A DNA stretch of 64,000 bases from a virus: positions 1 to 64,000 of IMG/VR virus record IMGVR_UViG_3300021961_000038; one strand, given 5' to 3'. Shown in pieces: positions 7,747 to 47,400 of this stretch. The notes beneath the pieces were generated by a model. It searched no databases and was not told the DNA's origin. It saw nothing but the letters and a program-made list of their open reading frames with translations. Numbering within the stretch: the stretch's first letter is position 1; each line of letters starts with the position of its first letter. Both the position numbers and the translations under genes were made by a program.

Positions 7747-7775
7747 TTGTTGTTCCTTATCTTATTGTTATTTAT

Positions 7776-8093: not shown

Positions 8094-8121
8094 ATTTTTT
8101 TCTCCTTTTTGTTACTTACCT

Positions 8122-11100
8122 TTATGATAATAACATCCTTTGTAACGCAACAATGTCTCCATCAACTCCGCCTAAGAAGTTCAATTTGGCTTTAACTTTG
8201 ATTTCAACACCGGTTGTAGTGTCAATTTGATCTTCTTTGATCTCAATAACACCTGCGGTCATTATATTTACGTTCAATTCGGAATTACCACCACCAATTT
8301 GAGCATTAATGAAAGTTCTAATTGCTCGTTGTGTCGGCACAACACTGTCCGAGTTAGCCGCAAATGTTCCATCTGTACTAAACTCAGTAATTACTGCACC
8401 TGTTCCACCAAGTTCAACTGAACCCAATGAAAGTTCATTTAGTCCTGCAATGTTAAATGCATCTGCATCCAACGTTGCAACACCAGTGGACTGTTCTACT
8501 GAGAACAAGTCACCAACTCTAAAGTTACCGTCTTGGTCTGTTGACGTAAAGAACACTCTACCACCACCATACTGAACAGTTTCTTTTGTTGCATCTGGAT
8601 CTACTAACGGAATTCCTGGATAGTTAGTATTAGTAAAGTTACCTGTACCAATATCTAAGAAATCGTGTCCTGTTAGTCGAACCTGTGAATATCTAATTCT
8701 TAATTCTACCGCATCACCATGCTCTGGTGCTTGGTTAACAGGAACATCAGGACTTAATTGTACTCTTGCTGTATAAGGTCCTACGCCTAGTAATTCTCTT
8801 ACAGTAACAAGTTTAAAGTAAGGATTATTAATTCCTTTTTCTGCTGGAACGTTTGCTAAACCGTTTGATATTACATCAATCATAATATCTAACAAGTATG
8901 TTACTTTAGAAATCGTTTCATTCTCGCCATCGTTGCCTGTAATTGTCTGTGTTGTTACCACAGGCGATTGTAAAGTTGAGTAAGATGTGTTTATTAAAAT
9001 GTAACTATTGATAATAGTTTTTAACTGTTCAATAGCCGCAACCGTTTGTGCTTGTTGACCTGCTACTTGTGAAGTAGCACCATCCCAATAACTTTTTGAT
9101 GCCGCAATACTTTGTAGGTTACCACCAAATTTAATATCGTGTGCAATAGCATCAACAATATATCCTGTGTCTCTTTCGCACTTGGATTGATTATATGAGA
9201 ATCCGTTCCATATACCAGTTCCTGCTGATATTTGTGCTTCGATCCAAGCAATAACTTCATCTTTTAAAAACTCTTTGTTAACAGTTAATAGATCATAAGT
9301 GTATGGATATGTTTCACTTGTAATACTATTAAATGTTACGTTTGAACCAGCCAATGGTGGTTCAGTTAATCCTTCAAGATATACGTTCGCTCCAGGTTGA
9401 TATTTGTCTGCATAACCATCACCTGAAACAGTAGCAGTAGCAGTTTCGTAACCAATACCTCTGTTTAACATTGTTGGTTGTGCTATTACACCGTTACCAA
9501 CTCTAACTTCAAATGGTGCTTCAATTGTGTTTGAAGGATCTGTAATTGTTAGTGTAGGAGTTGTAACGTATCCTGAACCAGGTTCAAGAATTTTCATTCT
9601 TGCAATTTTTCCTGTGGCAACTACCGCTCTTATAAGTGCTTGTGCACCTGTTAAAATTTTATTTTGATTTGTTGTTGATGTTTGAATTCTAAACCATTGT
9701 GGTCTGTTTGAAACAGATCCGCCAACCAACCCAGCAAACTCTGCCGGAGAAGCAATTCCTGTATTAGTTCTTTGTGTCCAATTAATACCATCTGGTGTTT
9801 GAGCACCTTCATTACCTGATGTAATAGTTGCAACATCAAACGTGATATCAGTACCTGTACCACCAATACTTGCCGCCGCAATAGTTAATGTCTCAGCCAC
9901 TTCGTAAAGTTTACCTGGATTTCTTACAGTAATTGTACAAGCACCTGATCCGTCAACATCGACATCAAATTCTGCATCAGCACCAATAACTGATCCCGTA
10001 GCACTTACACCTGTGTATGTACCAAGTGTTCTTAAAGCATCCGCGGCACCTACGTTGTTAATTGTTTTAATTTGTCCGTGTTTTGTTTGTGCCCAAACAA
10101 ATGTTCCCATTTGATAGTTAATAAATCCTTCATGGTGTAGATATGCTGGATATGTTGCTTCTGTCCAAACAGTTCCGTTTAATGAATAATAGTATTTGTC
10201 ACCTCTATCTAAAGTAACAATATATCTTCCATTACCCCATGCAATATCAAAATATTGTGCATCAGTTACAGTTGGAATTGGTAATCCAAATCCGTTCCAT
10301 GTAATACCGTCTGACGATTTAGCCGCTTGTCCGTCTGTTGCAATAGCAACAAATTCGTTTCTTCCCCAAATAACTTTTAACCAATTTCCTGTTGTGCTTG
10401 GTAATGCTGTTTGTGTCCAAGTAGCACCGCTATCTGTTGAGTATGCTCCCACAGTAGAATCTTCAGTAATGGCAACCCATGTGTCGTTGATCTTGCTATA
10501 TGCACTTGCAGTCCAAGTACCGTTTGGAGCAGTTGTTTGTGTCCAAGAAACACCGTTGTCTGCTGAGAAACAAGCAGTCGAAGTGCCTTTACCAAACACC
10601 GCCCAGTTGCCTCCGCCATCACCAACTAGTGCATTCCAGTTTAGTCCTGAAGGTAAATTTCCTCCAGCGGCAAACGTGCTACCGTCATCTGATCTTATTG
10701 TTGATTGAACGTTTTGTCCAACCGCTATAATTCTTCCACCTGCAATACCCCAGTTTTGTCTTCCATATTGTAATGCCGCTCCAACACCTTGTTGTGAGTC
10801 TGCATATCCTGGATGTGGTAATGTAATTCTAGGTTCAATTTCGTACTTTGTAGTTCCATCGATTAATGAAGCAATAGCAGTTCCTGGAATTAAATGGTCA
10901 AAGCCTGCTGTATCGTCGGATTCCTTAAACACAGTTGCTGATTTTGATCCAGCACCGTATGTTCCAATGTAACCATACTGACCAACACCAAGACCGCTGG
11001 TAATTACAATTCTCATTCCGTTGTATTGACCAGTGTTTGCAGTATCAGTGTTCGAAATTACAATCGATGTACTATCACCTGTTTGTGCTGTATTTCCTGC

Positions 11101-14628: not shown

Positions 14629-17600
14629 TTATGTGCCGCCTCCCGTTTCGTCGGTTCCGCCCATATCGTCCGGTGCCGGAAAGTCGGTTCCTGCGGCAAA
14701 AAATGCCATGGCCGCTACTTGTCCGCCAACACCGCCCTGTGCTGTTAATTTTGTTAATACATTGATTGCTCTAGTTGGATCTTCTTCAAGTGTTGTCATA
14801 GTAATTGTTTGGAAATTAATTTGAATAACACCTGCAACCAACCCGTTAACGTTAATGCTTGTACCACCACCTGTAATTCTGTTTGCAACATAAGCCGCGA
14901 TTGCTTTTTGTGTCGGGATAATTCTATCTGAGTTAGCAGTAAACAGTGGATCAATTGAGAATTCACTAATTACAGCACCAGTACCGCCTAAAGTAACACC
15001 ACCTAAACTTAGTTCTGTTAGTCCTTGTAGTTCAAATTGATCTGCGTTAAGTGTAACAGTACCTCTAGCCTGTTCAACTTCAAATAATTCTCCAACACGG
15101 AAGTTACCATCTTGGTCAGTTGAAGCGTAGAACACTCGTCCACCATCTGATTGTTGTACTTCATTAAATGGTTTTGGTGAATTATCTGCACCTTCAACGA
15201 AACCTTCAACATATCTTTGAGGATATGCTGATTCTCCAAAGTTACCTGTACCGATATCTAGGAAATCGTGGAATGTTAAACGTACCTGTGAGTATCTCTG
15301 TCTAATAGAAATTGCCGCACCGTGTTCTGGTGATTCTGCTCTTCCTAATTTAGGAGATATATTAATTTTTGCTGTTAGGCTTCCTGTATTACCTGCTACG
15401 TTTTCAACGCTGGTAACTTTATATGTTAATCCGTCAATACCTGCGATGTCTAAGTTATCACCTGGTCCTGGTAAACGAGACAATGCTTGTACGTTAACGC
15501 TACCACCTAATTGGAAAATGTCTGCATAACCGTCACCTGTTACTGTTGCTGTCGCACTTCTAAATCTTGTACCTCTACTAATAAATGATGGTTGAGGTAA
15601 TACACCGTTGGCTAATCTCAAATTCCATCTAGGTTGAGATGTAGATTGAGGATCAGTTATCGTCATAACAGCATTACCTGTTTCTGTTATAGATGTTGCA
15701 TTACCCATTCCAGCGGTAGATGTTGAATGATAATAAAAAGTACTAGGTGCATTAAATTGGACTTCAATTTCGATATATCTATCTGATGCAGTTGCAAAAT
15801 TATTAATAAATGCATTTCTAGTTACAACGCTTCCGTCGATGTAGTATAATAATCCTTGTTCATAATAGTTGCCACCATCTCCGATACCTTCGGCACTGTC
15901 TGCAAAGAAGAACGGATGTGTAGTTGTTGTTGAATCATCTTGTGGGAAATCAGTTAAAGAACTATCATTTAAATCAAACTTGTATGTAATACCTCTTGAC
16001 ATATCTAGATGTGGACGTTCACTACCGTCAATAAAGAATACATTTTGTGAATCTCCTGCATTTCTTTCAACGGTAACAGTTTTTACAACGTATAAAGTTT
16101 CTTCTGCACCACTGTAACCTGATCCTGGATCTAATAATGTAAACGAACCAACCCTGTTGTTTGAAACTTCAATAAATGCAAATGCTGTTTTACCTTGTCT
16201 TACTATTTCAACAATGTTTGATCCTGATGATTGTAAAGGATTACCTGAAGATAACAACAAGAATTTTCCAATATAGTTTGGAGCACCGAAACAAACGTGT
16301 GTCCATTTTCTAGAACCAGTTGTTGTTTGAGCAGTCCAAGTAATTGCGTCTTCAGATGTTGCTAATTCTGTGCTATTTTCTCTCACAGCAAGGAATACAC
16401 CTTGACCGTACCCTAATTTCCAGTTTCCTGGAGAAGGCAGTGCACCTGTTACTTCAACCCAAGTATCTTTTCCGTTTCTTACATTGTAGTATACAGTATC
16501 AGTTCCTGGTTGCACACCAACAAATCTATTGTTACCAAATGTTAATTGATCTAAGTTTGAAATATTTGTGGTTGTAAAGTTTTCACTCCATGTAGTTGCA
16601 CTAGGTGATTTAAACCAAATTCTATTTGCTGTTGAATCAAAATCATTTGTGGTAACAATAAAGTGTCCTTGACCATATGCTATACCACGAACAATTATTC
16701 CGCCGCCTAACACAACACCTGGTGATTCATATTCAATCCAGTTAATTCCGTCTGTTGATTGCCACCATACAGATCCGTCAGTTGTCATAACGACAAAGTA
16801 TCCACTACCATATTCAATAAATCTACTTGATACCAATGAAGAGTCTTCAGCAAGTTCTCTTACTAGCCAGTTTTCTCCATCTGTTGACACAGCAACAATA
16901 CCTTCATCAGCAACAGCAACAAACCTTCCGTTACCGTATACTATGTCTCTCCAACTCCATGAACCTGACGGTACATTAGGAGGAAAGTTAGGGAATGTTC
17001 CTTGAGTCCAAGTTACACCATCTAAACTTGTTGCATATGAATCTGTGTTTGGTTTACCAAATTCACTTTGTGCAATAGCAACAAATCTTCCGTTACCGTA
17101 TACACAGTTTGACCAGTCAATTGGTACAGGAAGATTAGCAGTTGTTTTGCTGAATGGTGGTTTACTAAACTCTACCAACGGTTGAATTTGATAGTATGCT
17201 GTATCATCAATAACAGGTTCTATAGGAGTACCTGAAATTAAATGATCCCATCCTGGTTGACCATTTGATAATTTATAAACGTTTGCAATTTTGGTTGAAG
17301 GGTCATATGTGTCAATAATACCGTATTGACCAACACCAGTACCACCAATAATTCTAATTAGTTTTCCGTTGTAACCTCCGGTTGAATCTTCTTGAGTATC
17401 AGTTAAAGAAAGTGTCAACGATGTAGTTGTTCCTCTTTGACCTAGACCTTGAATAACCTCGAATCCAAATCCACCCGCGGTTGATGAATCACCTGGATCC
17501 ATAAGTCTAACTTCTTTAATTGCACCATCTCTAAATTCTTCATATTCTGTAACAAGTCCGCTACCTGTACCTGAAAATGATTTAACTGATGCTGATGTAT

Positions 17601-26778: not shown

Positions 26779-27183
26779 TTAGATTGCTGTAAGAACCATG
26801 ATAGATTCTGTAGAGTCGTCTTGGATAACCCAAGTATAGCGATTATCATTGAAATCTCTACAAGTTCTATTGTAAAGTTTCTTAATACGCACTTGGTCTC
26901 CACCACCGCCTGATAATGTACCTTGTAATGACATTTCATCAGCCGCTAATGAACCTGCCGCTTTATCTACTAAAGTTACAACTCCAACGTTACCAGTTCC
27001 AGAACCGCCAACTTTTGTCTTTGATCCTGTCTTAGTATCGTTAACTAAAAATTTATTAGTTGAACGTTGTCTTATGATATAACCTTCTTCTGATTCAGCG
27101 TTAGCACCAACCTGTACGTTTACTGTAAAGTTAGTACCGTCTGCTAATAATCCGAAGTATTTTTTGTTTACTGGTCTTCCCAT
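26779..27183 (-). CDS. Conserved-type virion structural protein (134 aa, MGRP..KKYFG family)
   Basis: Own late promoter, structured leader, strong SD and terminator; GYIIRQRSTNKFLV motif. Confidence 0.65.
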   Translation of the reverse strand: MGRPVNKKYFGLLADGTNFTVNVQVGANAESEEGYIIRQRSTNKFLVNDTKTGSKTKVGGSGTGNVGVVTLVDKAAGSLAADEMSLQGTLSGGGGDQVRIKKLYNRTCRDFNDNRYTWVIQDDSTESIMVLTAI

Positions 27184-27278
27184 TTTTTTCTCCTTTAAAT
27201 CCCGTTCTAGGGGCTACGCGGTGGGTCATTCCGCATAAGTCCTACGTTGTGTAGGCACGTTTAACGACAATGTATTTA
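27184..27278 (-). promoter_or_regulatory. Late promoter and structured three-way-junction 5' leader
   Basis: TAAATA 27278-27273; closing stem TCGTT/AACGG, hairpins CCTAC/GTAGG and TATGCGG/CCGCGTA, then AAGGAG SD. Confidence 0.55.
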
Positions 27279-37477: not shown

Positions 37478-37695
37478 GTACACTCGATTTCTCTGAGTTG
37501 GACGCTCTGGTAAAGCGTTATGAAAAAGAAGTCAGCACAATCACAGAAGAACTGATCAATCTCTGCTATTACATGAGAGGTGGTTTACAGTTGCACGAAG
37601 CATATCACACCACACTCGAAGAAAGAAAACTAATAAGCAAGATGGTTGAAAACCACATGAAGGTTACCAAAGATAGTGGTGTTAATTTTCTCTAG
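37465..37695 (+). CDS. gp51-like baseplate assembly ORF, probably expressed as a -1 frameshift fusion with the gp26-like gene
   Basis: L.YYMRGGL...EAY....EER..I...VE motif. The -1 frame is open from the T TTT TTC heptamer (37459-37465); the only independent start is an SD-less TTG at 37498. Confidence 0.65.
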   Translation, partial: RWQVSTLDFSELDALVKRYEKEVSTITEELINLCYYMRGGLQLHEAYHTTLEERKLISKMVENHMKVTKDSGVNFL

Positions 37696-38309
37696 GAAGC
37701 GGCTTTTTTAGCGGCCTTTTGTGCTTGTTGAACAGCACGATGTTTTGCAATTTCCTGTTCCCAGCGTCTTACCTTTTCGCCACCGGTCATCTGTCCATGA
37801 ACAAAACCTGGAATTCCATCGCTGGGTGTTGGAGCAATCTTTTGTTGCAGTTTACCAATTAGGCTTTTTTCGTATTCATCCTGGCCACGTTTCATTCCTG
37901 TAACGGTACCCTTGTATGCTTGACCCACAGTTGAACCAACGGCCTTAGCACCTTTTCCTAATGCACTAGCACCCTTGGCAATGCCCGAACCCACGCCCTT
38001 GGCTACCATGCCCAAACCTTTCATGATTCCGCCCTGTCCTTGGCGTTGAGCCACCGCGGTTAGATGCGGAGCAACGTCGCGACCAGCGACGCGGCCGGTT
38101 TTAGAGTTTATCCACTGTGCACCGTGCCAAACATATGTTTGATTGTCCAAACCAACAACGTTAGTGCCCTTGGGAACGATCGGTCCCTGTGCTTTAGCCT
38201 GTTTTACACCCTGTTGATATCCTGTCTTAGCACCCTTTACAGCACCTTGAATACCCTTTTTAAGTTGTGTAAAAACACCTGCTTCATCTATAACGTCATT
38301 TATTTTCAT
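37692..38309 (-). CDS. Basic Gly/Ala/Lys-rich protein, probable internal head protein (205 aa)
   Basis: N-terminal MKINDVIDE/A resembles a short gp21-cleaved propeptide; AAGGAG SD; TAAATA 38336-38331. Confidence 0.55.
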   Translation of the reverse strand: MKINDVIDEAGVFTQLKKGIQGAVKGAKTGYQQGVKQAKAQGPIVPKGTNVVGLDNQTYVWHGAQWINSKTGRVAGRDVAPHLTAVAQRQGQGGIMKGLGMVAKGVGSGIAKGASALGKGAKAVGSTVGQAYKGTVTGMKRGQDEYEKSLIGKLQQKIAPTPSDGIPGFVHGQMTGGEKVRRWEQEIAKHRAVQQAQKAAKKAAS

Positions 38310-38361
38310 GGTTCGAACTCCTTGTGAATGTATTTAGCGTGATATATGATAATATATTGGT

Positions 38362-38446
38362 AAGTGAACTACGTTCACTTGTGTTTTCGCTATCGCTCAA
38401 ACACATTTATTCCTTATTATATGGAATTAATAATTGCGAAGCAATT
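38362..38446. repeat. Cluster of four adjacent short inverted repeats
   Basis: AAGTGAAC-tac-GTTCACTT (38362-38380), TGTGTTT/AAACACA (38380-38405), ATTCC/GGAAT (~38409-38427), AATTGC-gaa-GCAATT (38432-38446). Confidence 0.8.
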
Positions 38447-38847
38447 TAGCATCATGTAGATTGTTTCAGTCAGACGGAACCTGTTAAAGGGTTCCATCTA
38501 ATCTTGAACATCATGTGAGTTCGTCACAGCCAAGACTGGAAGTAGGTGTTTGTTTATACACAAGTTCAATGGGCTCTAACCTTTCCCAACCTACATCGAC
38601 ATCACGAAAAAATCTGCTTTACCGCTTTACCGCTTCGCGGATCGCTTCGCTACCTCCTGCTTCGTTCCTTTGCACGGAGTTTTTATGAACTATGTTGTGT
38701 TTTTCGATTGCTAACAGTCAATCTACGCTAACCAGTGAGCCCAATTCTTTTGATGGCCTATCTCCCAATGGGGGTCGATTAACGTGTACGAGTGTCCGTG
38801 TCACGGGTACCTTTTACTCAGCGGTATTACAAACTGGCCCGCCAACC
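38447..38847 (-). ncRNA. Candidate large structured ncRNA (~400-500 nt), family unassigned
   Basis: No credible ORF in a ~510-nt gap in a gene-dense genome; many local and long-range complementary segments (see findings). Strand inferred from co-orientation with the upstream gene and G-U wobble pairs. Confidence 0.65.
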
Positions 38848-39288
38848 TTATGTGTTAGTATTTTTTGCCTGCTCTTGAAGTGCCTGTCGCAATTTGTTTG
38901 ATCCGCCAACCCTACAATTAATAATTCCGTTATAATAGTCATCCGTTTCTAATACACGGCGGTCAAATTGCTCTCTTGCCTCTATGTAGGACATTTCTGC
39001 CCTTGATCTACAAAAATATAATACTTCTCTTGTGAATTTTTCTGGTCCCAATTGATTAACGTCGGCAATAAGAGCATCCGAGGATCCCCAATATTCCTGC
39101 CAATCACTTTCTTTGTGCCCGCGTCTTTTATTCTTTCTGCCTTTGAGTGGTGGTTTTGTGGTTTTAAACTTTGCTAATTTCTTGCCTATGTACTTGCGAC
39201 CAGTGGTTGTATTGGTAATTAGATACACAAACCCTTCATATTCTTCCGGAATTGTGTCGATTGATTGTCCACGATATGTCCACTGCAT
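38848..39288 (-). CDS. GIY-YIG family nuclease, T4 endonuclease II (DenA)-like
   Basis: GFVYLITN...GRKYIGKK, KESDW..YWGSS, F.RE.L, E..EQF, YYNG.I; TAAGTA-N5-ATG upstream. Confidence 0.8.
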   Translation of the reverse strand: MQWTYRGQSIDTIPEEYEGFVYLITNTTTGRKYIGKKLAKFKTTKPPLKGRKNKRRGHKESDWQEYWGSSDALIADVNQLGPEKFTREVLYFCRSRAEMSYIEAREQFDRRVLETDDYYNGIINCRVGGSNKLRQALQEQAKNTNT

Positions 39289-39306: not shown

Positions 39307-39534
39307 CTAATCTTGTGTGTCTAAATTCTGACTTTGCCTCTTTTGAGCCTTGAGATTTTTGCGTTTTTCTTGAATTTCTTTGCGTCTTACGGTAGCCAAT
39401 CTTCGAATGTCACTTAAAATTACACGAGCCTTTCTTCCTGTTTCGTCAAACCCTTTAACTTCAAATCGTTCCTGTGCATTATAGTAATCCATAACGGCTT
39501 GTACCAGTAACTCGTGTGTGCTTTTATTTGACAT
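39307..39534 (-). CDS. Small basic protein, possibly Hc1/histone-like DNA-binding
   Basis: F..KG....G.KAR..L..I..L...RRKEIQ helix pattern; overlaps the gp46 stop. Confidence 0.5.
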   Translation of the reverse strand: MSNKSTHELLVQAVMDYYNAQERFEVKGFDETGRKARVILSDIRRLATVRRKEIQEKRKNLKAQKRQSQNLDTQD

Positions 39535-41311
39535 CTTCTATTACTTCCGTATCGTTGGAATATGATGTGAATCCGTTTTCCTTTATTACTTTTAATATAT
39601 TATTAACCCTGCTTGATAATTCGTCTTTGTGTGAAATTAGATAAATGTTTTTCTGTCTTTCACGTGCCATCTTCTTAAGAACAGCAATAGAACTTTCAAC
39701 ACCAGCGGCATCCATACCACTATCAATCAATTCGTCAATAAACAACAAATTAATACTGTGATATAGGCTTTCCCAAACGTCACGGAACGTCCAACTCAAT
39801 GATAAGATGAGTCTATTTCGTTCACCTCTGCTGAGGTTATCAAAGTCTAAGTCGCGTCCTAGTTCTGTAATTTCCACAGTTAAATCGTTCTGAAACACAA
39901 CCTGATGTGGTAATCCTAGTGTTTCTAAATAGTATTTTAATCTCTTGTTTAAGAAGTAAAGGTTCTGATCAATAATACGTTTACGTATAAACGAGTCTTT
40001 TGAAGTTAATAGTTTATATAAAAACTCCTGATGTTCCTTAATCTCAGTTAAGGAGTTCATATGATCCCAGGTTACCTGTTGCAATGCTGTATTTTGAAGT
40101 TCTGTCATCTGTTCAGCATAAGGGTTAACCTCAGTTTCCTTTTCTTGTTTTCTTTCTTGTAAACTTTTTAGATTATTTTTATGATTATATGCTTCTTCGG
40201 CCGCATCATAATATGTTGTAGGCTTGCCGTTGATATCTCCAATGTCGTCAATCTTGGTTTGAACAGCCAAAGTTTCGCCAACAACACCGTCATGGTATTG
40301 TTTACTTTCGTTGTAATCGTTTTGCTTTAGTGCAAGTAGGTCTTGATGTGCTTTGTCATGTAATTCTTGACCACAAGCATAACATTTCTTTTCTTGAACC
40401 TCTTCTAAATCTTTTTCATAACGTTTTAATTGTCTTTCTGCTCTAATCAATGTGCTTTCAAGACTTGCTTTTTCTTTTTGCAAAGATGTTAGTTCGTTAT
40501 TTTTTGTATTCCATTCTTCTGCAAGTTTATGATTGTTAATTTCTTTTTCAATATCAACTTGTTCAAGTTCTGTAATAGCACGGGATAGTTTATTGATTTC
40601 ATCAATCCTTGAACTACCCCATGCTTTACTTTTAATCTCCAAGTTATCAATTGATTCTTGGACTTTCTGATTTGCAGATTCAATTGAACGAATTTTAGCA
40701 TCTTCGGCCGTGATTTCATCACGAACGACTTTCATTTGTTCTTTTAGTTTTTCTGCTTTTTCAGATAAGATGGTGATACCTAACAGTTGCTCAATAATTT
40801 CTCGTTGAGCGTTCGGATTTAAGGAAAGGAAAGGCTCCGTATATGTGTTAAGTGCCACCAAATGCTTGAACATGGTATGACTCATACCAAGTAATCTATC
40901 AATTTCTTCTTGTGTTTTACGTGAATCACCCTGTGATTCGTCGATGTCATCTGCTATTTGTTCGTTGTCTTCAATGTAAAACTTTAATAAATTCTTTTTA
41001 CGGCCTCTTTCAATTCTATAACTCTTGCCGTTAACTTGAAATTCAACAGTAACCAACATATCTTTGCCGTTGGTTTTGTTTACTAGATTGTCTTTCCTAA
41101 TTTTTGTAAGTGCTTCACCGTAAAATGCATAACTTATTGCATTAATAATTGTAGTTTTACCAGTACCGTTACGTGACCCAGCATCATCACCACCTAGATC
41201 CATGTTTTCACCTAGTACAAGTGTTAAATGATCTCTATCAAAGTCAACGGCTTGGGTAGAATTACCCACACTCATAAAGTTTTTAACTGTAATTGTTTTA
41301 ATTTTAAACAT
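39524..41311 (-). CDS. gp46: Recombination endonuclease ATPase subunit (Rad50/SbcC-like)
   Basis: KNFMSVGN, Walker A NGTGKTT, zinc hook CYACGQ, signature LSRGE, Walker B LFIDE, ISH. Confidence 0.95.
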   Translation of the reverse strand: MFKIKTITVKNFMSVGNSTQAVDFDRDHLTLVLGENMDLGGDDAGSRNGTGKTTIINAISYAFYGEALTKIRKDNLVNKTNGKDMLVTVEFQVNGKSYRIERGRKKNLLKFYIEDNEQIADDIDESQGDSRKTQEEIDRLLGMSHTMFKHLVALNTYTEPFLSLNPNAQREIIEQLLGITILSEKAEKLKEQMKVVRDEITAEDAKIRSIESANQKVQESIDNLEIKSKAWGSSRIDEINKLSRAITELEQVDIEKEINNHKLAEEWNTKNNELTSLQKEKASLESTLIRAERQLKRYEKDLEEVQEKKCYACGQELHDKAHQDLLALKQNDYNESKQYHDGVVGETLAVQTKIDDIGDINGKPTTYYDAAEEAYNHKNNLKSLQERKQEKETEVNPYAEQMTELQNTALQQVTWDHMNSLTEIKEHQEFLYKLLTSKDSFIRKRIIDQNLYFLNKRLKYYLETLGLPHQVVFQNDLTVEITELGRDLDFDNLSRGERNRLILSLSWTFRDVWESLYHSINLLFIDELIDSGMDAAGVESSIAVLKKMARERQKNIYLISHKDELSSRVNNILKVIKENGFTSYSNDTEVIEDVK

Positions 41312-42333
41312 TATAAGTTCCTATACAAGTCTAATAATAGACTGCTCTTGAAGTTTTCACTAGAAATTTTAGTAATTTGTTCAGTTACAATTTGATCAAC
41401 GCTTTCAAACTCAACATCTCCTCGATCGGTACTTAAATCACTATCTTGATTTTCTGTATCGGGTAGTAAACTAATTTCTCTTAGATTATACTGTTTAGAA
41501 AACGTTTCTTTCATAAATGTAGCCTCTTCATATGATACATCAATATCTAATACAACACGAATATACAAGTTTTTAGGACTCAGTAATGTATCTGTTTCGT
41601 GCAACAGGTTAGAAAGTTTCATAGTTCTATACTTTGGACAGTCAGGCCAATCAACAAACTGTGGTTGTCCTCCCCATTCTAGTATCATCATACCGCGTTC
41701 ATCGTCCCAAGCATCGGCGTAGTTGTGTGGAAAGGCATTGCCGATGTACCAAATATTTTTATTATTTTGTCTTTTATGGAAGTGACCACTGAATACAAGT
41801 TCTTGATTAGTAAAATCGTCCGCTTTGATTTCGCCTGTGTCAGGCATATCAACCATGGCATTCATTTTAAAGTGTGGAAGTTCAAAGTGTCCAAACATAT
41901 ATTTGCATTTCATTTTAGAAACTTTCTTCCATTCTTCACCAACCAACCAAGGAATCAATGCAACATTGTCAATTAACATTGGTTCGTTGACCACAGTGAC
42001 GCCGGGTACGTGTTTACCAAATACCACAGAATGAATTTCACGCTTGTCTTTGTAATACAAATCGTGATTGCCCGGAAAGAAATAAAACTTTTTAAAAGCC
42101 GCACCAAGTTTTTCCAGCGATCTCAAACTAGCATCCATGGTGGTTAGATTTAACGCACTTCTATTATGATGCCAATCGCCGGTGAATATACCAACATCAC
42201 AGCCATTTGCTTTTGCTTGTTCAATATACCAATCAACAAATGCTTCACAATCGTCGTTGTGAATTTTACTATTGGACTTCAAACCAAAGTGTATGTCCGT
42301 GAAAACAGCCGCTTTTTCGAATAAATTTGCCAT
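41311..42333 (-). CDS. gp47: Recombination nuclease subunit (Mre11/SbcD-like)
   Basis: TDIHFG, GDWHHNR, GNHD, GHFE, SGHFH metallophosphoesterase motifs. Confidence 0.95.
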   Translation of the reverse strand: MANLFEKAAVFTDIHFGLKSNSKIHNDDCEAFVDWYIEQAKANGCDVGIFTGDWHHNRSALNLTTMDASLRSLEKLGAAFKKFYFFPGNHDLYYKDKREIHSVVFGKHVPGVTVVNEPMLIDNVALIPWLVGEEWKKVSKMKCKYMFGHFELPHFKMNAMVDMPDTGEIKADDFTNQELVFSGHFHKRQNNKNIWYIGNAFPHNYADAWDDERGMMILEWGGQPQFVDWPDCPKYRTMKLSNLLHETDTLLSPKNLYIRVVLDIDVSYEEATFMKETFSKQYNLREISLLPDTENQDSDLSTDRGDVEFESVDQIVTEQITKISSENFKSSLLLDLYRNL

Positions 42334-42385: not shown

Positions 42386-43240
42386 TTAATAATCAGCCTT
42401 TGGGCGTCTCATAGTTTTATAGAACTCGGCTAATTTTTCCTTGTCCTCTTTAAAATATTCTTCATTCTGTCTTGTAAATGAAGGGTTCAAACCATTTTCC
42501 TGAAGGATGTCATCACGTATGCTTTGATTTTTCTTTTCAATGTTTAGCACACGAGTGAATGAGTTTGTAACTGCCGCCGTGTAGTAAGCAAATGGATTTT
42601 CTGATTTACTCTCATCAAATTGCAATCCAATCTGCGAAAGTTGTAGCACAGCCTGAGATCTCATTTCATCATTGTAGGTATAACCACGCCAATTGCTTCT
42701 TGTTCCATAACGATCAGCAAGTTTTAAAAACATCATACCTAGGTTTTCTGTAATTCGTCCATGTTCTTTGCTAAATGCACCATTAACCATACCGCCTTTC
42801 CAATGACTTTTACCAACACAAATTAAATTGTCCTGATCATTATATTTCCAATGTTGAAATGGTGGAAAGTTAACTTTGGTATGTTTATCTGCTACACTTT
42901 TTGTTTTACGTTTACGACCGGGTTCTTCTGGAACATGATCAAAGGTCATAACCCTAAAAATTAAATCAGTTTTTTCAATCTTTTTCCAATCCGGAGTAAC
43001 TTCTGCTAATTTTGTCTTTTTGTCGCCGGATTCTCTGGCTTGTTCATATGCTTGTTTTCCAATACGATCTGCACGATTACGCTTGGCTTGTGCAACAGTA
43101 AGTCTGTTCACCTTATCCAAACCACTTAAGATAATGTCATAAGTAGAGTAAGCATCATCAGTAAAAGAACTGAACGAATTTTTAGACTTATGTATTTCTT
43201 TGAGCAGATCTCTATTGTTAAGATACTTTACTCTTTTCAT
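42386..43240 (-). CDS. gp55: Late-transcription sigma factor, gp55 family
   Basis: YLNNRDLL, LGMMFLKLA.RY..R.NW.GYTY.DEM, FDESKSENPFAYYT....NSF.R.L..EKK. Confidence 0.9.
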   Translation of the reverse strand: MKRVKYLNNRDLLKEIHKSKNSFSSFTDDAYSTYDIILSGLDKVNRLTVAQAKRNRADRIGKQAYEQARESGDKKTKLAEVTPDWKKIEKTDLIFRVMTFDHVPEEPGRKRKTKSVADKHTKVNFPPFQHWKYNDQDNLICVGKSHWKGGMVNGAFSKEHGRITENLGMMFLKLADRYGTRSNWRGYTYNDEMRSQAVLQLSQIGLQFDESKSENPFAYYTAAVTNSFTRVLNIEKKNQSIRDDILQENGLNPSFTRQNEEYFKEDKEKLAEFYKTMRRPKADY

Positions 43241-43263
43241 ATATTTCTCCTATAATAAGTACT

Positions 43264-43298
43264 ATTATAAACTACGCAGTTAATAAATGCAATAAATA
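43264..43298. promoter_or_regulatory. Divergent control region: sigma70-type promoter for gp55 (-) overlapping a late box for the baseplate operon (+)
   Basis: Minus: TTGCAT 43292-43287, 17 nt, TATAAT 43269-43264. Plus: AATAAATA 43291-43298. Confidence 0.65.
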
Positions 43299-43324
43299 TT
43301 TGTAACAAAAGGAACCAAAAAGTT

Positions 43325-44170
43325 ATGGATAGAGAAAAAGATTTAGCCAATCGTACATTTAACGATAAAGTCCAAGCCAACCAGATTAACGGAAATGGTG
43401 ACGCAGGAACCACCATTGCTGGCACCGGAGGGAACGTTGGAGGTGCTGTAACAGGGTTCCTTGGTAATGTTGCAGGTTCGGCCATAGAAGCAACTGGATT
43501 AAGTCCAGCAATTGGTAGACTTGCAGGCCTATTAAAAGGAGGCAAACAAGAAGAAGCAGGACCTGTTATGCCTAATACTGCTTTTACCGATGATTTTAGA
43601 GTCAAAATTAAAATTCCAGTGTTATATTTGCAAGGACCAGCACAGCGTTTGCAAGAAATTGGAGATAATGCTGTTGTGTTTCCTTATACTCCACAAATAG
43701 TTTTACAATCAAGAGCAAACTATACGCCTATCCATCCTACACACAGTAATTATGCCTTCTATGCTTACCAGAACTCACAAATTGACGCTATATCAATAGT
43801 AGGAACATTTACAGCACAGAATCAAGGTGATGCAAAAACAGTTATGGGTGCCATACACGCACTTAGAACTGTAACAAAAATGCATTTTGGCTCCAGTGAC
43901 TTTGCAGGTGCTCCACCTCCTGTTTGTAGATTGCACGGTTATGGTGATTATGTTTTTAATAATATGCCTGTTGTAATTTCAAGTTTCTTTTATACCATGA
44001 ACGATGACGTAGATTATATTGCTGTTGAAATTGACGGAGCAAGTGTAATGGTTCCATCACGTTCAGAATTTACAGTTGAATGTTTACCAGCATTTTCTAG
44101 AAGAGATCAAGCAACTTGGTCCATTAATGCATTCGCCAAAGGCGGATTAAAAGGCAAAGGATTTATATAA
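43325..44170 (+). CDS. Baseplate/tail-tube initiator, gp54/gp48-like
   Basis: VVFPYTPQI, HPTHSNY.FY.YQNS, GAPPPVCRLHGYG...FNN.PVV..SF; first gene of the baseplate module. Confidence 0.65.
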   Translation: MDREKDLANRTFNDKVQANQINGNGDAGTTIAGTGGNVGGAVTGFLGNVAGSAIEATGLSPAIGRLAGLLKGGKQEEAGPVMPNTAFTDDFRVKIKIPVLYLQGPAQRLQEIGDNAVVFPYTPQIVLQSRANYTPIHPTHSNYAFYAYQNSQIDAISIVGTFTAQNQGDAKTVMGAIHALRTVTKMHFGSSDFAGAPPPVCRLHGYGDYVFNNMPVVISSFFYTMNDDVDYIAVEIDGASVMVPSRSEFTVECLPAFSRRDQATWSINAFAKGGLKGKGFI

Positions 44171-44171
44171 A

Positions 44172-44474
44172 ATGGCTCTCTATTCTAAAACAAGTTTATA
44201 TTCAACAACACTACAAAGAAACAGTGCCCTGGGTGTGCTAGATTATATTGAAATACCTAAAAAGGACACAGATGTTGCATATACTATTTTACCTCAATAT
44301 AATTACAGACCAGATCTGTTAGCAAGTGACTTGTATGATGATCCTAATCTATGGTGGGTGTTTAAAAATCGAAATCCATCGGAGATAGATGATCCTATTT
44401 TTGATTTTGTTGCAGGTACAGTTATCAGGATTCCAACAATCGACGCAATTAGACAAGTAGTCGGAGGAGCATAA
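44172..44474 (+). CDS. gp53: Baseplate wedge subunit, gp53-like (LysM-like)
   Basis: YRPDLLASDLYDDPNLWWVF..RN....DPIFDF..G..IRIP. Confidence 0.8.
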   Translation: MALYSKTSLYSTTLQRNSALGVLDYIEIPKKDTDVAYTILPQYNYRPDLLASDLYDDPNLWWVFKNRNPSEIDDPIFDFVAGTVIRIPTIDAIRQVVGGA

Positions 44475-47400
44475 TGTCTCAAAAAGTTGCAGGTGCTTCG
44501 GGCAGAACTAAAGATGCAGGCTTCATCGACAAAGCCAACAGTGTTGGAACCGCCAAAGGAAAAACAGGAGTAGTTACAGGTGCTTCTAAATCTGTAGGAA
44601 CAATGACAAATGTTCAAACAAATACAGGTGAAGCAATCAGTATGCCAAAGTCTATCAAGGTAGACAATCGAAATCCATTCGGAACAAAATCATTTACCGA
44701 CGAAGAAACAGGAGAAACAATCACAACCGACCGCGATGTCCATATGGCAGACTTTGATATGGAAATGAAGGGAGGTTATAATGTTCTTCACAATTATAAT
44801 TTGTACAATTATGTTATAACTCTATCAAGTTTAAGTAATTTAGAGGTTAAAGATCCTTCATCATATAAAAAAGGCGGCGTCGAAGGTGCCGATAGATTTA
44901 TTATATCACGTTCCGGCGGTTATGCAAGATCCAATGAAGCCACTGTCAATGTTGACTTGTCAGTTGATGGCAACACTGTATGGTATAGAGATAACAATCA
45001 TTTTAAAGACAGCGGCAATCGTCACCTTGATCTTTTTATAGACAATGTACAATTTAAAACCTTTATGGGAATAAATGGTCCTACCGGAAGTAATATGACC
45101 TCAGGATCTTTTGAAATTACAGAACCACACGGAGTGGGAGGGTTTTATGAGGCGTTATATAGTGCGGCAAAGTTTTCAGGACATAAAAGTTATTTGGCGG
45201 CACCCTTTTTATTAACAATTGAATTTATTGGAAGAAAGACCCAACTGAATTCTGGTGATATAACAACACTAGAAAATGTTCCAAGATCAACAAGACACTT
45301 TCCAATAATGATCACAAAAAGTAATATGAAAGTTGATGCGGGAGGTGCCAAATATAACGTAGAATTTGTTTCTAGAAGCCATCAAGAAGCAAACAAAGCC
45401 ACGGTAACACAGTTAAAAGACAACATCAATGGTCCTGGAACAGTAAAACAAACGGTTGGCTTGGTATTATATGATTTATTTTTGAAACTTAATTTCCAAG
45501 AAAACAAAAGAATGGACGACGCCAAAGGCGAAAGTGCATTAGGATTTAAAAAACCTCAACAGGTTGACGAAAAAGTAAAAGCATCACGTGAGGCCGCGGC
45601 CACTGCCGCCAAGGATGCCGGTTTAATAGTTCAACCTTTTCTAGAGCATAAATGGTGTGTATGGTTCCCTGAAGCATATCCTAACGAGGAGTTTTCGTTA
45701 AAGGGATTAAGTTATGAAACTTGGATTACAGCAGAAATTGATATGCTTAACATAAAAGAAAAAACATACAATCAATATAACAGTAAGGAAAATCAATTAA
45801 AATTTGAAATGGCATACAAAAATAAATTCAGTGACTCTCCTATGAGAGAAGATGAATTTACATACTCTGGTCATTTTGAAGTACCTGATATTGAAAACTT
45901 TGTTGAAGAACAAAAGAACGTTGTTGATAAAGACCTTGCTCCTAAATTAAAAGTTGCCCAGGATGAAGCAACACTGGCAAAAACATCTATTGCAAAATTA
46001 GAAGAAGAAATAGACGAAGAAAGTAAAAAAACAGGATTTAGTATTAAAATGGATGTAGAACCAGAAGGTGAAGGCAGTTACTATTACATTGGTAATGATC
46101 CTGAAGCCGTACTTGCAGGTTCAAAAGGAAGTCAATACACAATATCCGATCCCGGAGATGTAAAACAACCAACAGTGTACGAAGCACGAGAAAAATTACA
46201 ACAATTAATTGATAAACTTAATAAAGAAAGAGAAAGATTAAACAAAGCGGAAAGAGATATTAGAAGTTTAGAAAGCAGATACAAAACTATTAAAGAGAGC
46301 GTCAACACACAAACAACGCAAAAATACAAACGTTACGGTGACAATGCTAAAACTTGGAACTGGAAAAAAGGATCAACATTAGATTCAAATATTCATATGA
46401 CTATATTAGATAGTTCATATGCTACACTATTGCAAAAATCAGGTGAAGTGTTAAACAAAATTAAAACATCTCACTACATACCTTGGTATAAAATTGAAAA
46501 ATATGCTGTACAGCGTGGATACGACACTTATTATAATCAACCTGTTTATACATTTCATTATTGTATTGTTCCTTATGAACTACATTACAGCAAGATAGCC
46601 GCACAGTACGGAATCGCTGGTGCATATAACTATGATAAAGCATACAAAAATGCTGTAAGAGAATACAATTATATTTTTACTGGAAAAAATATTGATGTAC
46701 TAAATTTTGATTTAGAATATAATAATTTATTTTTTCAAGCAAGTACAAAAGCAGAGGATCAACAAGCAAAAGGTGAGACAGCACCACAGGCAGAAGAAAA
46801 ACCAAAACCGGTTTATAATACAGAGCCATTAAAATCTATTTTTGCTGAACTTAACATGGTTACTGGCGGTGCCGGTGCGGCATCACAAGAGATGGCGGCC
46901 ACAGGAGGAAATAGTGCTAGTGGAATGCCGGCTGATAGCGGAACACAAATTGCAAAAATATTGCATGACAGTTTATACAATGCAACTGAAAAAGGTTTAT
47001 TAAATGCACAATTACAAATTATTGGAGACCCTGTTTATCTAATTGGTTCGGGAATAGATGCTAGACCGCAACTAACAGGACAAAACAGTGAAACAATTGA
47101 AGGAGAGGCAAATATTTTTAGTAGAGAGTGTGACATTATTTTTAATTTTAGATTTCCCGGCGATTATCCAACGGCTAATGAACTTGCTGGAGGGTCGAAG
47201 TTTGTTGCTATGCCTCAACAGTCAAGATACAGCGGTTTATATCAAGTAGCCACAGTTGAAAATTTTTTAGGCGGAGGCGAATTTAAACAAACACTACAAC
47301 TATTAAGACGACCTAATCAAAAATCTGATTACGCACAACCTGTTGAAGAAGCAACAGTTCAATTAGATGAAGTTAAAAATCCTTTACTGGATAAAGGTGA

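What the first reader, a model, noticed from the sequence alone, without database searches (positions are those of the whole stretch)
38447..39288. GIY-YIG nuclease gene followed immediately by a large, multiply pseudoknotted non-coding RNA
Seen: the ~510-nt gap starting at the nuclease stop codon is full of complementary segments on the minus strand. Long-range pairs are UGGGCUC/GAGCCCA (38743-38737 with 38576-38570), UAGC-GUAGAUUG/CAAUCUAC-GCUA (38730-38719 with 38463-38447), ACACA-AGUUCA/UGAACU-UGUGU (38700-38686 with 38568-38558) and GUAGGU/ACCUAC (38594-38589 with 38547-38542). A 5' hairpin GGCGG/CCGCU has a loop (GCCAGU) that can pair with ACUGGU at ~38736. Local hairpins include UAGAUGGAACC/GGUUCCGUCUG and CUCC-UGC/GCA-GGAG, and ACAUGAUG occurs twice. 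Several helices cross each other, i.e. pseudoknots, as in ornate phage RNAs such as GOLLD/ROOL. No terminator is visible between gene and RNA. Inference: a co-transcribed nuclease-RNA module (RNP, RNA-regulated or RNA-guided nuclease), or an independent large ncRNA.
Basis: partly seen in the sequence, partly recalled or inferred. Interest (0 to 1): 0.88.

Follow-up and report, generated by a model that had tools for sequence, protein, structure and literature searches.

The report
Knotted twin-box RNA behind phage nuclease
The gene-free stretch after a small DNA-cutting enzyme gene of this uncultured giant T4-like water phage encodes a real, knotted non-coding RNA of about 420 bases, shared by well over a hundred related phage contigs; it carries the same 7-letter word twice, its job is unknown, and nothing shows that it guides the enzyme.

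Summary
Confirmed: window 38432-38850 (minus strand) is a conserved, structured, pseudoknotted non-coding RNA that starts at the stop codon of a 146-aa SegE-type GIY-YIG gene. On 43 homologues, 89.5% of cells in my 16-helix model pair, against about 39% when partners are slid. 35 pairs show compensatory changes.

The RNA belongs to a large family found in more than 160 non-redundant IMG/VR loci, always in the order gp47-gp46-(75 aa)-nuclease-RNA. It is absent from 50,697 GenBank phages. In most other lineages its 5' third is the orphan Rfam motif Polynucleobacter-1 (RF01718). The window's version matches no Rfam family.

The most unusual feature is two single-stranded 7-mers (ACAUGAU, 38516-38510 and 38457-38451). 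They are identical in 164 of 167 loci across 12 variants, with at least 31 joint switches. I found no partner for them.

The nuclease link is synteny, not dependence. Related GIY-YIG genes occur without the RNA, and the RNA occurs behind a PD-(D/E)XK nuclease or behind an inserted gene. My best reading is an autonomous phage ncRNA with two identical recognition sites and unknown function. This scan has reported the same family many times on other DNA.

The parts
38848..39288 (-). 146-aa GIY-YIG nuclease gene (SegE type). It has the catalytic domain only; the motifs FVY...YIGKK are present.
   Evidence: Pfam PF19835 1.8e-33, covering residues 3-123. PHROG 447 and homing-endonuclease PHROGs. Translation.
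38432..38850 (-). Twin-box RNA core, about 420 nt. RNA position 1 is the U of the nuclease stop codon; window coordinate = 38851 minus position.
   Evidence: 70-90% nucleotide identity directly behind the nuclease gene in related contigs. Conservation profile. 16-helix model: 89.5% paired against 38-40% when slid, 35 compensatory pairs. The frequent G-U pairs fit only the minus strand.
38820..38843 (-). 5' hairpin GGCGG/CCGCU with the conserved loop GCCAG
   Evidence: 100% paired, almost invariant (helix 1)
38790..38819 (-). Second stem-loop: outer GAG/CUC helix plus an inner variable hairpin
   Evidence: UA:30 against AU:13 and CG:25 against UA:18 compensatory pairs (helices 2-4)
38725..38785 (-). 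Long-range helix ACGUUAA/UUAGCGU enclosing a variable insert, which is shortened in 19 of 43 relatives
   Evidence: 99.3% paired, 3 compensatory pairs (helix 5)
38706..38723 (-). Hairpin GAUUG/CAAUC
Evidence: 97.7% paired, 3 compensatory pairs (helix 7).
38686..38689 (-). Pseudoknot helix, 5' strand (UUCA)
   Evidence: Pairs with 38565-38568. 4 of 4 pairs compensatory, 98.8% paired (helix 8).
38565..38568 (-). Pseudoknot helix, 3' strand (UGAA). It lies inside the GUAGGU/ACCUAC helix, so the two helices cross.
   Evidence: helices 8 and 11
38654..38679 (-). Stem CUCC/GGAG with the invariant internal strand GGAACGAAGC
   Evidence: 100% paired, 3 compensatory pairs (helix 9). Invariant columns.
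38605..38649 (-). Variable-length hairpin. Its length ranges from about 6 nt to more than 90 nt among relatives. It contains GCGAAGC twice.
   Evidence: The closing helix has 4 of 4 compensatory pairs (helix 10). Alignment.
38589..38594 (-). Helix GUAGGU, 5' strand
   Evidence: Pairs with 38542-38547. 99.6% paired, 2 compensatory (helix 11).
38542..38547 (-). Helix ACCUAC, 3' strand
   Evidence: helix 11
38570..38588 (-). Hairpin UGGG/CCCA with the near-invariant loop AAAGGUYAGAG
   Evidence: 99.4% paired; UA:35 against GC:5 at the closing pair (helix 12)
38502..38535 (-). Helix UCUUGG/UCAAGA enclosing a small hairpin and box 1
   Evidence: 88.6% paired, CG:13 against UA:10 (helix 13)
38510..38516 (-). 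Twin box 1: ACAUGAU, preceded by AACUC
38473..38498 (-). 9-bp hairpin GAUGGAACC/GGUUCCGUC between the two boxes
   Evidence: 99.7% paired (helix 15). In type C relatives a different covarying hairpin sits at the same place.
38451..38457 (-). Twin box 2: ACAUGAU, preceded by AAUCU
   Evidence: Identical to box 1 in 164 of 167 non-redundant loci; 12 variants. At least 31 joint switches on a gp46 tree.
38432..38446 (-). Stem AAUUGC/GCAAUU with a UUC triloop. On the plus DNA strand it reads GCGAAGC. It is the likely 3' end of the core.
   Evidence: Covarying stem in relatives
38362..38404 (-). Conserved tail: a stem with tandem G-A pairs and a 4-nt GNNA/GNRA-type loop (GUUUGAGCG-AUAG-CGAAAAC), then the hairpin AAGUGAAC-GUA-GUUCACUU
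   Evidence: The only copy in the window. The motif is present in 114 of 155 loci. The outer stem covaries.
38331..38337 (-). CUAAAUA, a T4-late-promoter-like element ahead of the next gene. The Shine-Dalgarno AAGGAG is at 38318-38323 and the ATG at 38307-38309.
   Evidence: Read from the sequence. ATAAATA recurs at this place in relatives. The resemblance to the T4 late promoter TATAAATA rests on my own knowledge.
39307..39534 (-). 75-aa basic ORF between gp46 and the nuclease gene, conserved in many relatives, with no family hit

Best explanation
Window 38432-38850 (minus strand) is an autonomous gene for a non-coding RNA of about 420 nt with at least one pseudoknot. It is a divergent 'type A' member of a large, mostly uncatalogued RNA family of uncultured aquatic T4-like giant phages. 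In most other lineages the first third of that RNA is the orphan Rfam motif Polynucleobacter-1.

The RNA lies at the end of the gp47-gp46-75aa-nuclease gene run and is probably read through from the nuclease gene. It is followed by tail hairpins and a late-type promoter for the next gene.

Shown: the fold; the family; the conserved gene order; and two single-stranded copies of one 6-7-nt word, held about 52-60 nt apart on either side of a hairpin, which are kept identical through many independent changes.

Inferred: the folded body is a scaffold that presents the two words to two copies of one partner, or twice to the same partner. I think the partner is most likely a nucleic acid read by base pairing, and less likely a dimeric protein. 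The GIY-YIG gene is a Seg-like free-standing nuclease gene that sits next to this conserved RNA gene and may be co-converted with it. It is not an RNA-dependent enzyme. The biological role of the RNA is unknown.
For: Fold:
- 89.5% of cells pair against 38-40% in slid controls. 35 pairs have compensatory changes against 8-17. Covariation score is 0.258 against 0.04-0.08. 0 of 500 shuffles reach the observed values.
- Minimum-free-energy z = -3.0.
- In type C relatives two further pseudoknots covary: a hairpin loop UUAGCGU with ACGCUAA (7 pairs), and a loop GGAYRACC with GUYRU.

Family:
- The RNA is conserved directly behind the nuclease gene in all loci fetched through gp46 or the nuclease.
A 596-Gb bacterial collection gave 42 hits, close to my estimate of about 35 chance matches; only 4 carried the family hallmarks, all on metagenome-assembled contigs that I read as misbinned phage DNA.
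- RF01718 scores 62-118 bits right after the nuclease stop codon in 11 of 18 loci tested.
- A profile built from type C 3' domains alone hits only window 38527-38426, E = 6e-8.

Twin boxes:
- 164 of 167 loci have identical 7-mers, and the 3 exceptions differ only at position 7. Pairing boxes between loci gives 16% identity.
- There are 12 variants and at least 31 state changes on a gp46 tree.
- Chance pattern hits in bacteria mostly differ between the two copies (34 of 42).
- The bases just 5' of the boxes stay different (AACUC against AAUCU, invariant). This argues against simple gene conversion.

Autonomy from the nuclease.

Not coding: the downstream ORF is not conserved while the RNA is, and no ORF logic fits the boxes.
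Against: - No transcript data could be obtained, so the RNA's ends, abundance and timing are unknown.
- No partner for the boxes was found in cis, in the flanking 5-15 kb of about 200 loci, or on minus-strand transcripts of the 113-kb contig. Base pairing to a nucleic acid is therefore a guess.
- A small nuclease gene lies within 1.5 kb upstream in every informative locus. A functional tie cannot be excluded, because these loci are related and not independent.
- The homology between type A and type C rests partly on loci fished with a pattern taken from type A.
Confidence: 0.55

Rival explanations
1. RNA-primed replication origin. The transcript folds and then re-anneals to the template DNA to form a stable R-loop that primes DNA synthesis. 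An upstream RNA word can pair with the template strand at a downstream site only if the two sites are direct repeats, which would explain the twin boxes. The GCGAAGC mini-hairpins and the AT-rich tail would serve as single-stranded-DNA and unwinding signals.
For: - The requirement that the two words be identical, with no complementary partner found in cis, fits RNA-to-template-DNA pairing.
- GCGAAGC occurs twice in the variable hairpin, and again on the plus strand of the UUC-triloop stem.
- The stretch after the core is AT-rich.
- T4 origins oriF and oriG use R-loop primers, and ColE1 RNA II is a folded primer (my own knowledge).
- Earlier notes of this scan raised the same idea.
Against: - There is no turn in cumulative GC skew at the locus; the minimum lies near 44 kb, where gene direction changes.
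- An origin does not need about 400 nt of pseudoknotted RNA conserved by compensatory change.
- 7 nt is short for a stable hybrid.
- Nothing was tested experimentally.
Confidence: 0.14
2. Nuclease-RNA system. The RNA is a partner of the adjacent small nuclease, acting as a guide (boxes as targeting words), an inhibitor or antitoxin, or a regulator of its expression.
For: - A small nuclease gene (GIY-YIG in 98 of 104 loci, otherwise PD-(D/E)XK) lies upstream in all informative loci.
- Where GIY-YIG is missing it is replaced by another nuclease.
- The 146-aa protein has only the catalytic domain and no recognisable DNA-binding domain.
- RNA conservation begins at the stop codon and no terminator intervenes.
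Against: - GIY-YIG homologues occur in 755 GenBank phage records. The one examined, Melnitz-3 (65% identity), lies at another locus followed by a 148-nt gap, and its genome lacks the twin-box pattern.
- In 5 loci another ORF lies between nuclease and RNA, once on the opposite strand.
- Two unrelated nuclease folds would have to use the same RNA.
- No GIY-YIG column covaries with the box positions clearly above the gp46 control (0.73 against 0.66).
- All loci are syntenic relatives, so the association may be a single historical event.
- Free-standing homing nucleases typically sit next to conserved targets (my own knowledge of the T4 seg and mob genes).
Confidence: 0.1
3. A cis-acting element of the operon: a structured 3' UTR that protects or processes the early/middle transcript, or insulates it from the late gene downstream.
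For: - It lies at the boundary between the gp47-gp46-nuclease run and a late-promoter-driven gene.
- No terminator lies before it.
- Weinberg et al. 2010 listed Polynucleobacter-1 as possibly cis-regulatory (PMC2864571).
Against: - A size of about 420 nt, several pseudoknots and twin boxes go far beyond known 3' stabilisers.
- The RNA keeps its form when separated from the nuclease gene by other genes.
- A late-type promoter lies between it and the next gene, so it is not that gene's leader.
Confidence: 0.1
4. DNA-level repeated protein-binding sites (operators or iterons). Their sequence would co-evolve with a specific binding protein, as repeated operators do in different phage immunity types. 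The RNA fold would be a separate feature.
For: - Parallel change of repeated sites is what co-evolving protein-site pairs show (my own knowledge).
- A small basic 75-aa ORF lies nearby.
Against: - The boxes sit inside a region whose helices are kept by compensatory changes with many G-U pairs, which indicates selection on the RNA strand.
- No protein column tracks box positions 1, 2 or 5 strongly.
- The 75-aa ORF is not detectable in many loci.
Confidence: 0.06
5. A known catalytic or housekeeping RNA in disguise: a group I intron tied to the homing nuclease, a tmRNA or RNase P RNA.
For: - The crossing helices enclose two hairpins in an order that recalls P3/P7 of group I introns.
- Phage group I introns often carry GIY-YIG genes (my own knowledge).
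- The size is close to that of tmRNA and RNase P RNA.
Against: - No Rfam hit at E up to 10 in the window, nor in six relatives apart from RF01718.
- There is no split host gene. The sequence upstream is a complete nuclease ORF of varying family, and stop codons follow in all frames.
- ARAGORN finds no tmRNA or tRNA in the window or in 27 loci.
- No tag-like ORF is present.
Confidence: 0.03

Closest known systems
Polynucleobacter-1 RNA motif (Rfam RF01718; Weinberg et al. 2010, PMC2864571)
   Same: In relatives with the same gene order, RF01718 (62-118 bits) occupies the first ~140 nt after the nuclease stop codon. It is followed by the same twin-box 3' domain as in the window. Its function is unknown, and it comes from freshwater and estuary samples like these contigs.
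   Different: The window's own 5' domain does not match RF01718, even at E up to 10. RF01718 covers only about a third of the RNA and misses the pseudoknotted core and the twin boxes. It was catalogued from Burkholderiales and metagenomes, not recognised as a phage RNA.
GOLLD (RF01998) and ROOL (RF03087) large ornate RNAs
   Same: They are large, intricately folded, found on phages or prophages, have no known function, and were found by comparative analysis.
   Different: There is no sequence or structure match in Rfam. This RNA is smaller (about 420 nt). It is not next to tRNA genes; none are present in the window. The twin boxes have no counterpart that I know of.
Free-standing GIY-YIG homing endonucleases of T4-like phages (Seg proteins; Pfam PF19835 SegE_GIY-YIG)
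   Same: The upstream gene matches the SegE GIY-YIG domain over its full length. It sits between conserved genes. It is replaced by an unrelated nuclease at the same spot in a close relative. Its identity to the window's copy is bimodal (48-59% or 65-80%) among phages whose gp46 is uniformly 54-63% identical, which suggests horizontal exchange.
   Different: It is only 146 aa, with no recognisable DNA-binding domain. It is present in nearly all family members, which is unusual for a selfish gene. No cleavage site is known.
Folded primer RNAs of replication origins (ColE1 RNA II; T4 oriF/oriG R-loops)
   Same: These are structured or persistent transcripts that pair back to template DNA. An upstream RNA word that pairs with a downstream template site implies a direct repeat.
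   Different: There is no evidence of initiation here. The comparison rests on my own knowledge, not on a test.
Group I introns carrying GIY-YIG genes (e.g. the T4 td intron with I-TevI)
   Same: A GIY-YIG gene lies beside a pseudoknotted RNA, and the helix order is partly P3/P7-like.
   Different: The ORF is not inside the RNA, there are no exons, no Rfam intron model matches, and no conserved intron core sequences are seen.

Membership tests
Twin-box RNA family (extended Polynucleobacter-1; uncatalogued as a whole) | Position: directly downstream of a small nuclease gene in the order gp47-gp46-(75 aa)-nuclease-RNA | tested here: met
   Window ORFs and Pfam hits. The same order holds in the loci.
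Twin-box RNA family (extended Polynucleobacter-1; uncatalogued as a whole) | Two identical 7-mers (NNNUNAN) preceded by AACUC and AAUCU, 47-67 nt apart, flanking a hairpin | tested here: met
   ACAUGAU at 38516-38510 and 38457-38451. Family statistics.
Twin-box RNA family (extended Polynucleobacter-1; uncatalogued as a whole) | Sequence-profile match of the 3' domain to members of another subtype | tested here: met
   nhmmer with a type C-only profile gives 38527-38426, E = 6.4e-8, the only hit in 64 kb. Caveat: the type C loci were fished with a pattern taken from type A.
Twin-box RNA family (extended Polynucleobacter-1; uncatalogued as a whole) | Covariation-supported core with crossing helices | tested here: met
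   helices 8 and 11. Type C pseudoknots.
Polynucleobacter-1 RNA (RF01718) | Score of at least 37 bits against the Rfam covariance model | tested here: not met
   No hit in window 38200-39000 at E up to 10, nor at the gathering score in the whole window. Met in relatives at 62-118 bits.
GOLLD / ROOL / other Rfam large RNAs | Match to the family covariance model | tested here: not met
Group I intron | Match to Rfam intron models | tested here: not met
   No hit at E up to 10
Group I intron | Interrupts a host gene whose exons flank it | tested here: not met
   Upstream is a complete nuclease ORF, of a different family in L034. Downstream, all three frames hit a stop within 11 codons.
Group I intron | Self-splicing with a guanosine-binding P7 | not testable with these tools
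   Needs an in vitro splicing assay
tmRNA | tRNA-like domain and a tag reading frame | tested here: not met
   ARAGORN finds none in the window or in 27 loci. No Rfam tmRNA hit. No consistent ORF at or between the boxes.
GIY-YIG nuclease, SegE type (PF19835) | Full-length match to the catalytic domain above the curated cut-off | tested here: met
   115.9 bits against a cut-off of 25, profile positions 1-123 of 123
GIY-YIG nuclease, SegE type (PF19835) | Homing: sporadic distribution and cleavage of a nuclease-free allele | tested here: inconclusive
   In favour: a homologue at another locus in Melnitz-3, and bimodal identity against gp46. Against: it is present in 98 of 104 loci of this family.
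RNA-guided nuclease systems (guide RNA plus effector) | The effector depends on the RNA, and the guide is complementary to a target | tested here: inconclusive
   No target complementary to the boxes was found. A nuclease homologue exists without the RNA. Biochemistry is not testable here.

The most novel reading that the evidence does not exclude
The two identical boxes are programmable recognition words. The knotted RNA would use them to bring a target nucleic acid to an effector. The target could be a DNA site in rival phages or the host, or two copies of a tRNA: positions 3-5 of every box variant read AUG, AUA or GUG. The effector could be the adjacent small nuclease, of either fold. That would make this a new kind of RNA-directed nuclease or tRNA-capturing system in giant phages.
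Probability: 0.04. Interest if true: 0.95.

Novelty: new variant of a known kind. Interest (0 to 1): 0.6.

Why it matters
Large, intricately folded RNAs of unknown function are rare, and past examples turned out to have unusual biochemistry or architecture.

This one is common in an abundant but uncultured group of giant aquatic phages. It shows that an orphan Rfam motif is only the first third of a much larger RNA. It also carries a very clear evolutionary signal: two short words that always change together, which implies a specific partner that nobody has yet identified.

That signal makes the question testable. Find what reads the boxes and the function should follow. Showing that the tempting 'RNA-guided GIY-YIG nuclease' reading lacks support is also useful.

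Tried and rejected
1. A codon reading of the boxes (sense codon followed by UAA or UGA; stop-start overlap URAUG; ribosome hopping between matched sites). The spacing between boxes is spread evenly over the three frames. Open frames ending at the boxes have a median of 14 codons and a minimum of 2, and only about half have a start codon. One type A subgroup (34 loci) lacks the AUG.

2. A cis partner for the boxes. There is no consistent complementary 7-mer or 5-mer within -520 to +400 nt. The apparent G/U-rich partner GUUGUUU does not covary and already pairs elsewhere.

3. A partner elsewhere in the fetched loci or in the 113-kb contig: none found.

4. Co-variation of nuclease residues with the boxes: not clearly above the gp46 control.

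5. Mobile nuclease-RNA cassette hopping between contexts. All loci share one gene order.

6. The gap as a decayed C-terminal domain or hidden ORF. The substitutions are compensatory in helices, and no ORF is conserved.

7. A repeated regulatory motif. The tail motif occurs only once in the window.

8. Homologues in cultured phages. There is no blastn match for types A, B or C in 50,697 records. PA5oct has a gene-poor 1.5-kb stretch beside a PD-(D/E)XK gene with a by-eye resemblance, but profiles find nothing, and the four ncRNAs published for PA5oct lie elsewhere.

9. GC skew as an origin signal: uninformative.

11. RNAalifold on a plain MAFFT alignment of type C missed the hairpin between the boxes because of misaligned gaps.

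12. An AGGCA motif upstream of the RNA start is enriched, 136 of 139 against 80 of 139 in a control window. That contrast is too weak to interpret.
Full report
WHAT IS THERE

The window is part of a 113-kb IMG/VR contig, estimated at about 32% of a giant phage genome. Its gp46/gp47 recombination nuclease genes resemble those of PA5oct-type jumbo phages.

On the minus strand the gene order is as follows:
- gp47 (41311-42333)
- gp46 (39524-41311)
- a 75-aa basic ORF (39307-39534)
- a 146-aa GIY-YIG gene (38848-39288; Pfam SegE_GIY-YIG, 1.8e-33, catalytic domain only)
- a 538-nt gene-free gap
- a 205-aa low-complexity ORF (37692-38309)

Rfam finds nothing in the gap, even at E up to 10. ARAGORN finds no tRNA or tmRNA. 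No terminator-like site separates gene and gap on the minus strand. The gap folds better than its shuffles (z = -3.0).

THE RNA IS REAL

Loci fetched through gp46 (33 loci) and through the nuclease (80 kept of more than 596) all share the same gene order. They carry 70-90% identical sequence for about 400-480 nt directly after the nuclease stop codon. The downstream protein, by contrast, is detectable in only 2 of 54 relatives. Conservation is blocky, with variable hairpins between near-invariant strands.

I tested a 16-helix model on an alignment of 43 non-redundant homologues:
- 89.5% of cells pair, against 38-40% when partners are slid by 1-3 columns.
- 35 pairs have compensatory changes, against 8-17 in the slid controls.
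- The covariation score is 0.258, against 0.04-0.08.
- None of 500 shuffles reaches the observed values.

The many G-U pairs fit only the minus strand. Helix 162-165/283-286 (window 38689-38686 with 38568-38565) has 4 of 4 compensatory pairs. It crosses helix 257-262/304-309 (GUAGGU/ACCUAC), so this is a true pseudoknot.

The AGUUCA/UGAAC core, GUAGGU/ACCUAC and the local hairpins hold. The others do not:
- UGGGCUC/GAGCCCA is invariant. Its 5' strand is absent in 19 of 43 sequences. At its one varying pair the local UGGG/CCCA hairpin is preserved instead.
- GUAGAUUG/CAAUCUAC loses to the covarying local hairpin GAUUG/CAAUC.
- UAGC/GCUA pairs in 61% of cells, ACACA/UGUGU in 39%, and the loop pairing GCCAGU/ACUGGU in 79% with no compensation.

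A MUCH WIDER FAMILY, PARTLY CATALOGUED

A close relative (L034, gp46 87% identical) has a PD-(D/E)XK nuclease (PF24608, 2e-27) in place of GIY-YIG. It is followed by a differently sequenced but similarly built RNA, which I call type B.

In these contigs gp46 is only 54-63% identical to the window's.

The same pattern gave 42 hits in 596 Gb of bacterial and archaeal genomes, against about 35 that I estimate by chance. Only 4 carry the family hallmarks, all on metagenome-assembled contigs that I read as misbinned phage DNA.

In the commonest subtype (type C), the first ~140 nt after the nuclease stop codon are the Rfam motif Polynucleobacter-1 (RF01718). It scored 62-118 bits in 11 of 18 loci tested, and it also occurs in L051, whose nuclease is 80% identical to the window's. 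RF01718 is an orphan motif from Weinberg et al. 2010, listed as possibly cis-regulatory (PMC2864571).

A profile built from type C 3' domains alone hits only window 38527-38426 (E = 6e-8). This is partly circular, because the loci were fished with a pattern. Shared parts outside the pattern (GUGAC, the UUC-triloop stem, the tail hairpins) and the shared gene order support homology independently.

Type C shows two further covarying pseudoknots. No GenBank phage has the RNA.

THE TWIN BOXES

Two stretches of about 24 nt (GUGAC-N6-AAYYY-7mer) lie 47-67 nt apart, on either side of a hairpin. I anchored them by context only, without requiring identity. Under that test the two 7-mers are identical in 164 of 167 non-redundant loci, and the 3 exceptions differ only at position 7. 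Pairing boxes between different loci gives 16% identity.

Twelve variants occur: AGAUAAU, ACAUGAA, ACAUGAU, AGAUGAU, GGAUAAU, GCAUAAU, GGAUGAU, GAAUAAU, ACGUGAA, GAAUGAU, ACAUGAG and ACAUAAA. On a gp46 tree the box state changes at least 31 times. Loci that are 91-95% identical outside the boxes can carry different boxes. In chance pattern matches from bacterial genomes the two 7-mers usually differ (34 of 42).

The three bases just 5' of the boxes stay different between the copies (CUC against UCU, invariant). Gene conversion is therefore an unlikely cause, and selection for identity is the better explanation.

I found no complementary partner, no reading-frame logic and no nuclease residue that tracks the boxes clearly above the gp46 control.

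THE NUCLEASE LINK

Among 104 informative new loci, GIY-YIG directly precedes the RNA in 98. The rest have a PD-(D/E)XK nuclease, or an extra ORF between nuclease and RNA, once on the opposite strand. In two of these, weak promoter-like sites precede the RNA.

GIY-YIG homologues occur in 755 GenBank phage records. The best hit, Melnitz-3 (65% identical), lies at another locus, is followed by a 148-nt gap, and its genome lacks the twin-box pattern.

Identity of the nuclease to the window's copy is bimodal (48-59% or 65-80%) among phages whose gp46 is uniformly 54-63% identical. This suggests horizontal exchange, as expected for a Seg-like gene.

The adjacency is therefore best read as conserved gene order, perhaps kept up by homing next to a conserved RNA gene. 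It does not look like an RNA-dependent enzyme.

WHAT IT MOST LIKELY DOES

The function is unknown. My best reading is an autonomous, stable, folded phage RNA whose scaffold presents two identical single-stranded words to one kind of partner.

The alternatives, with my odds, are an RNA-primed origin (0.14), a nuclease partner (0.10), a cis-acting 3' element (0.10), DNA-level protein sites (0.06), and a disguised intron, tmRNA or RNase P RNA (0.03). The evidence for and against each is given in the rival explanations.

EARLIER NOTES OF THIS SCAN

After I reached these conclusions, look-ups showed that the scan has described this family many times on other genomes as a 'twin-box' or 'extended Polynucleobacter-1' RNA. 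Those notes agree with my results.

One note claims look-alikes in cultured Pseudomonas and E. coli giant phages. I could not reproduce that for PA5oct with profile searches, and the four ncRNAs published for PA5oct lie elsewhere (PMC7318152).

VERDICT

This is a real, large, pseudoknotted phage ncRNA. It is a divergent member of a widespread family of which only one third is catalogued. It has an unexplained twin-box signature, and the RNA-guided-nuclease reading is unsupported.

Noticed in passing
window 27181-27256 (-): Rfam freshwater-2 RNA (RF02980), 60.3 bits against a gathering score of 49.9. The same motif occurs in relative L155 at 14865-14940.
   Followed up: no
window 38632-38650 and 38432-38446: The heptamer GCGAAGC occurs twice on the RNA strand inside the variable hairpin. 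It occurs again on the plus DNA strand of the UUC-triloop stem (GCUUCGC in the RNA). From my own knowledge, d(GCGAAGC) is an unusually stable DNA mini-hairpin. Whether this matters at the DNA level is open.
   Followed up: partly
loci L038, L045, L053, L066, L070, L073, L079, L082, L084, L087, L104 and others: Many IMG/VR contigs end 90-160 nt after the GIY-YIG stop codon, inside the RNA's variable 5' domain. This looks like systematic assembly breaks, caused by strain variants that share the nuclease gene but differ in the RNA.
   Followed up: no
L051 547-687; also L143, L150, L161, L166, L220: A fourth RNA subtype has Polynucleobacter-1 right after a nuclease 80% identical to the window's. 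It is followed by a middle part like the window's type A.
   Followed up: partly
L281 (PA5oct, NC_071039) 7150-8660: A 1.5-kb stretch holds only four tiny annotated ORFs. It lies between a PD-(D/E)XK ('RusA-like') gene and the baseplate genes, just after gp55-gp47-gp46. By eye it contains GCUCUGGUAGAAAAAGAUCAAC and a GUGAAC-UGUA-GUUCAC hairpin that resemble family elements. Profiles give no hit.
   Followed up: partly
all box variants: Positions 3-5 of every twin-box variant read AUG, AUA or GUG, and positions 4-6 read UAA or UGA. No reading-frame logic fits, so this may simply reflect the fixed U4 and A6.
   Followed up: partly
window 37692-38309 (-): The 205-aa Gly/Ala/Lys-rich ORF after the RNA evolves very fast. 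It is detectable by tblastn in only 2 of 54 relatives, and different ORFs occupy the spot in other lineages. A late-promoter-like ATAAATA precedes it.
   Followed up: no
contig position 93039-93048 (beyond the window): A third copy of the box word, in the same sense (CUUACAUGAU on the minus strand), is the only other match in the 113-kb contig. About one is expected by chance.
   Followed up: no
window about 43000-45000: The cumulative GC skew has its minimum here, where gene direction switches.
   Followed up: no
about 10-85 nt upstream of the RNA start in all subtypes; window 38872-38876: The pentamer AGGCA recurs just upstream of the RNA, whether that stretch is coding (different frames) or non-coding. 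It was found in 136 of 139 loci against 80 of 139 in a control window. The RNA or its signals may overlap the end of the nuclease ORF.
   Followed up: partly
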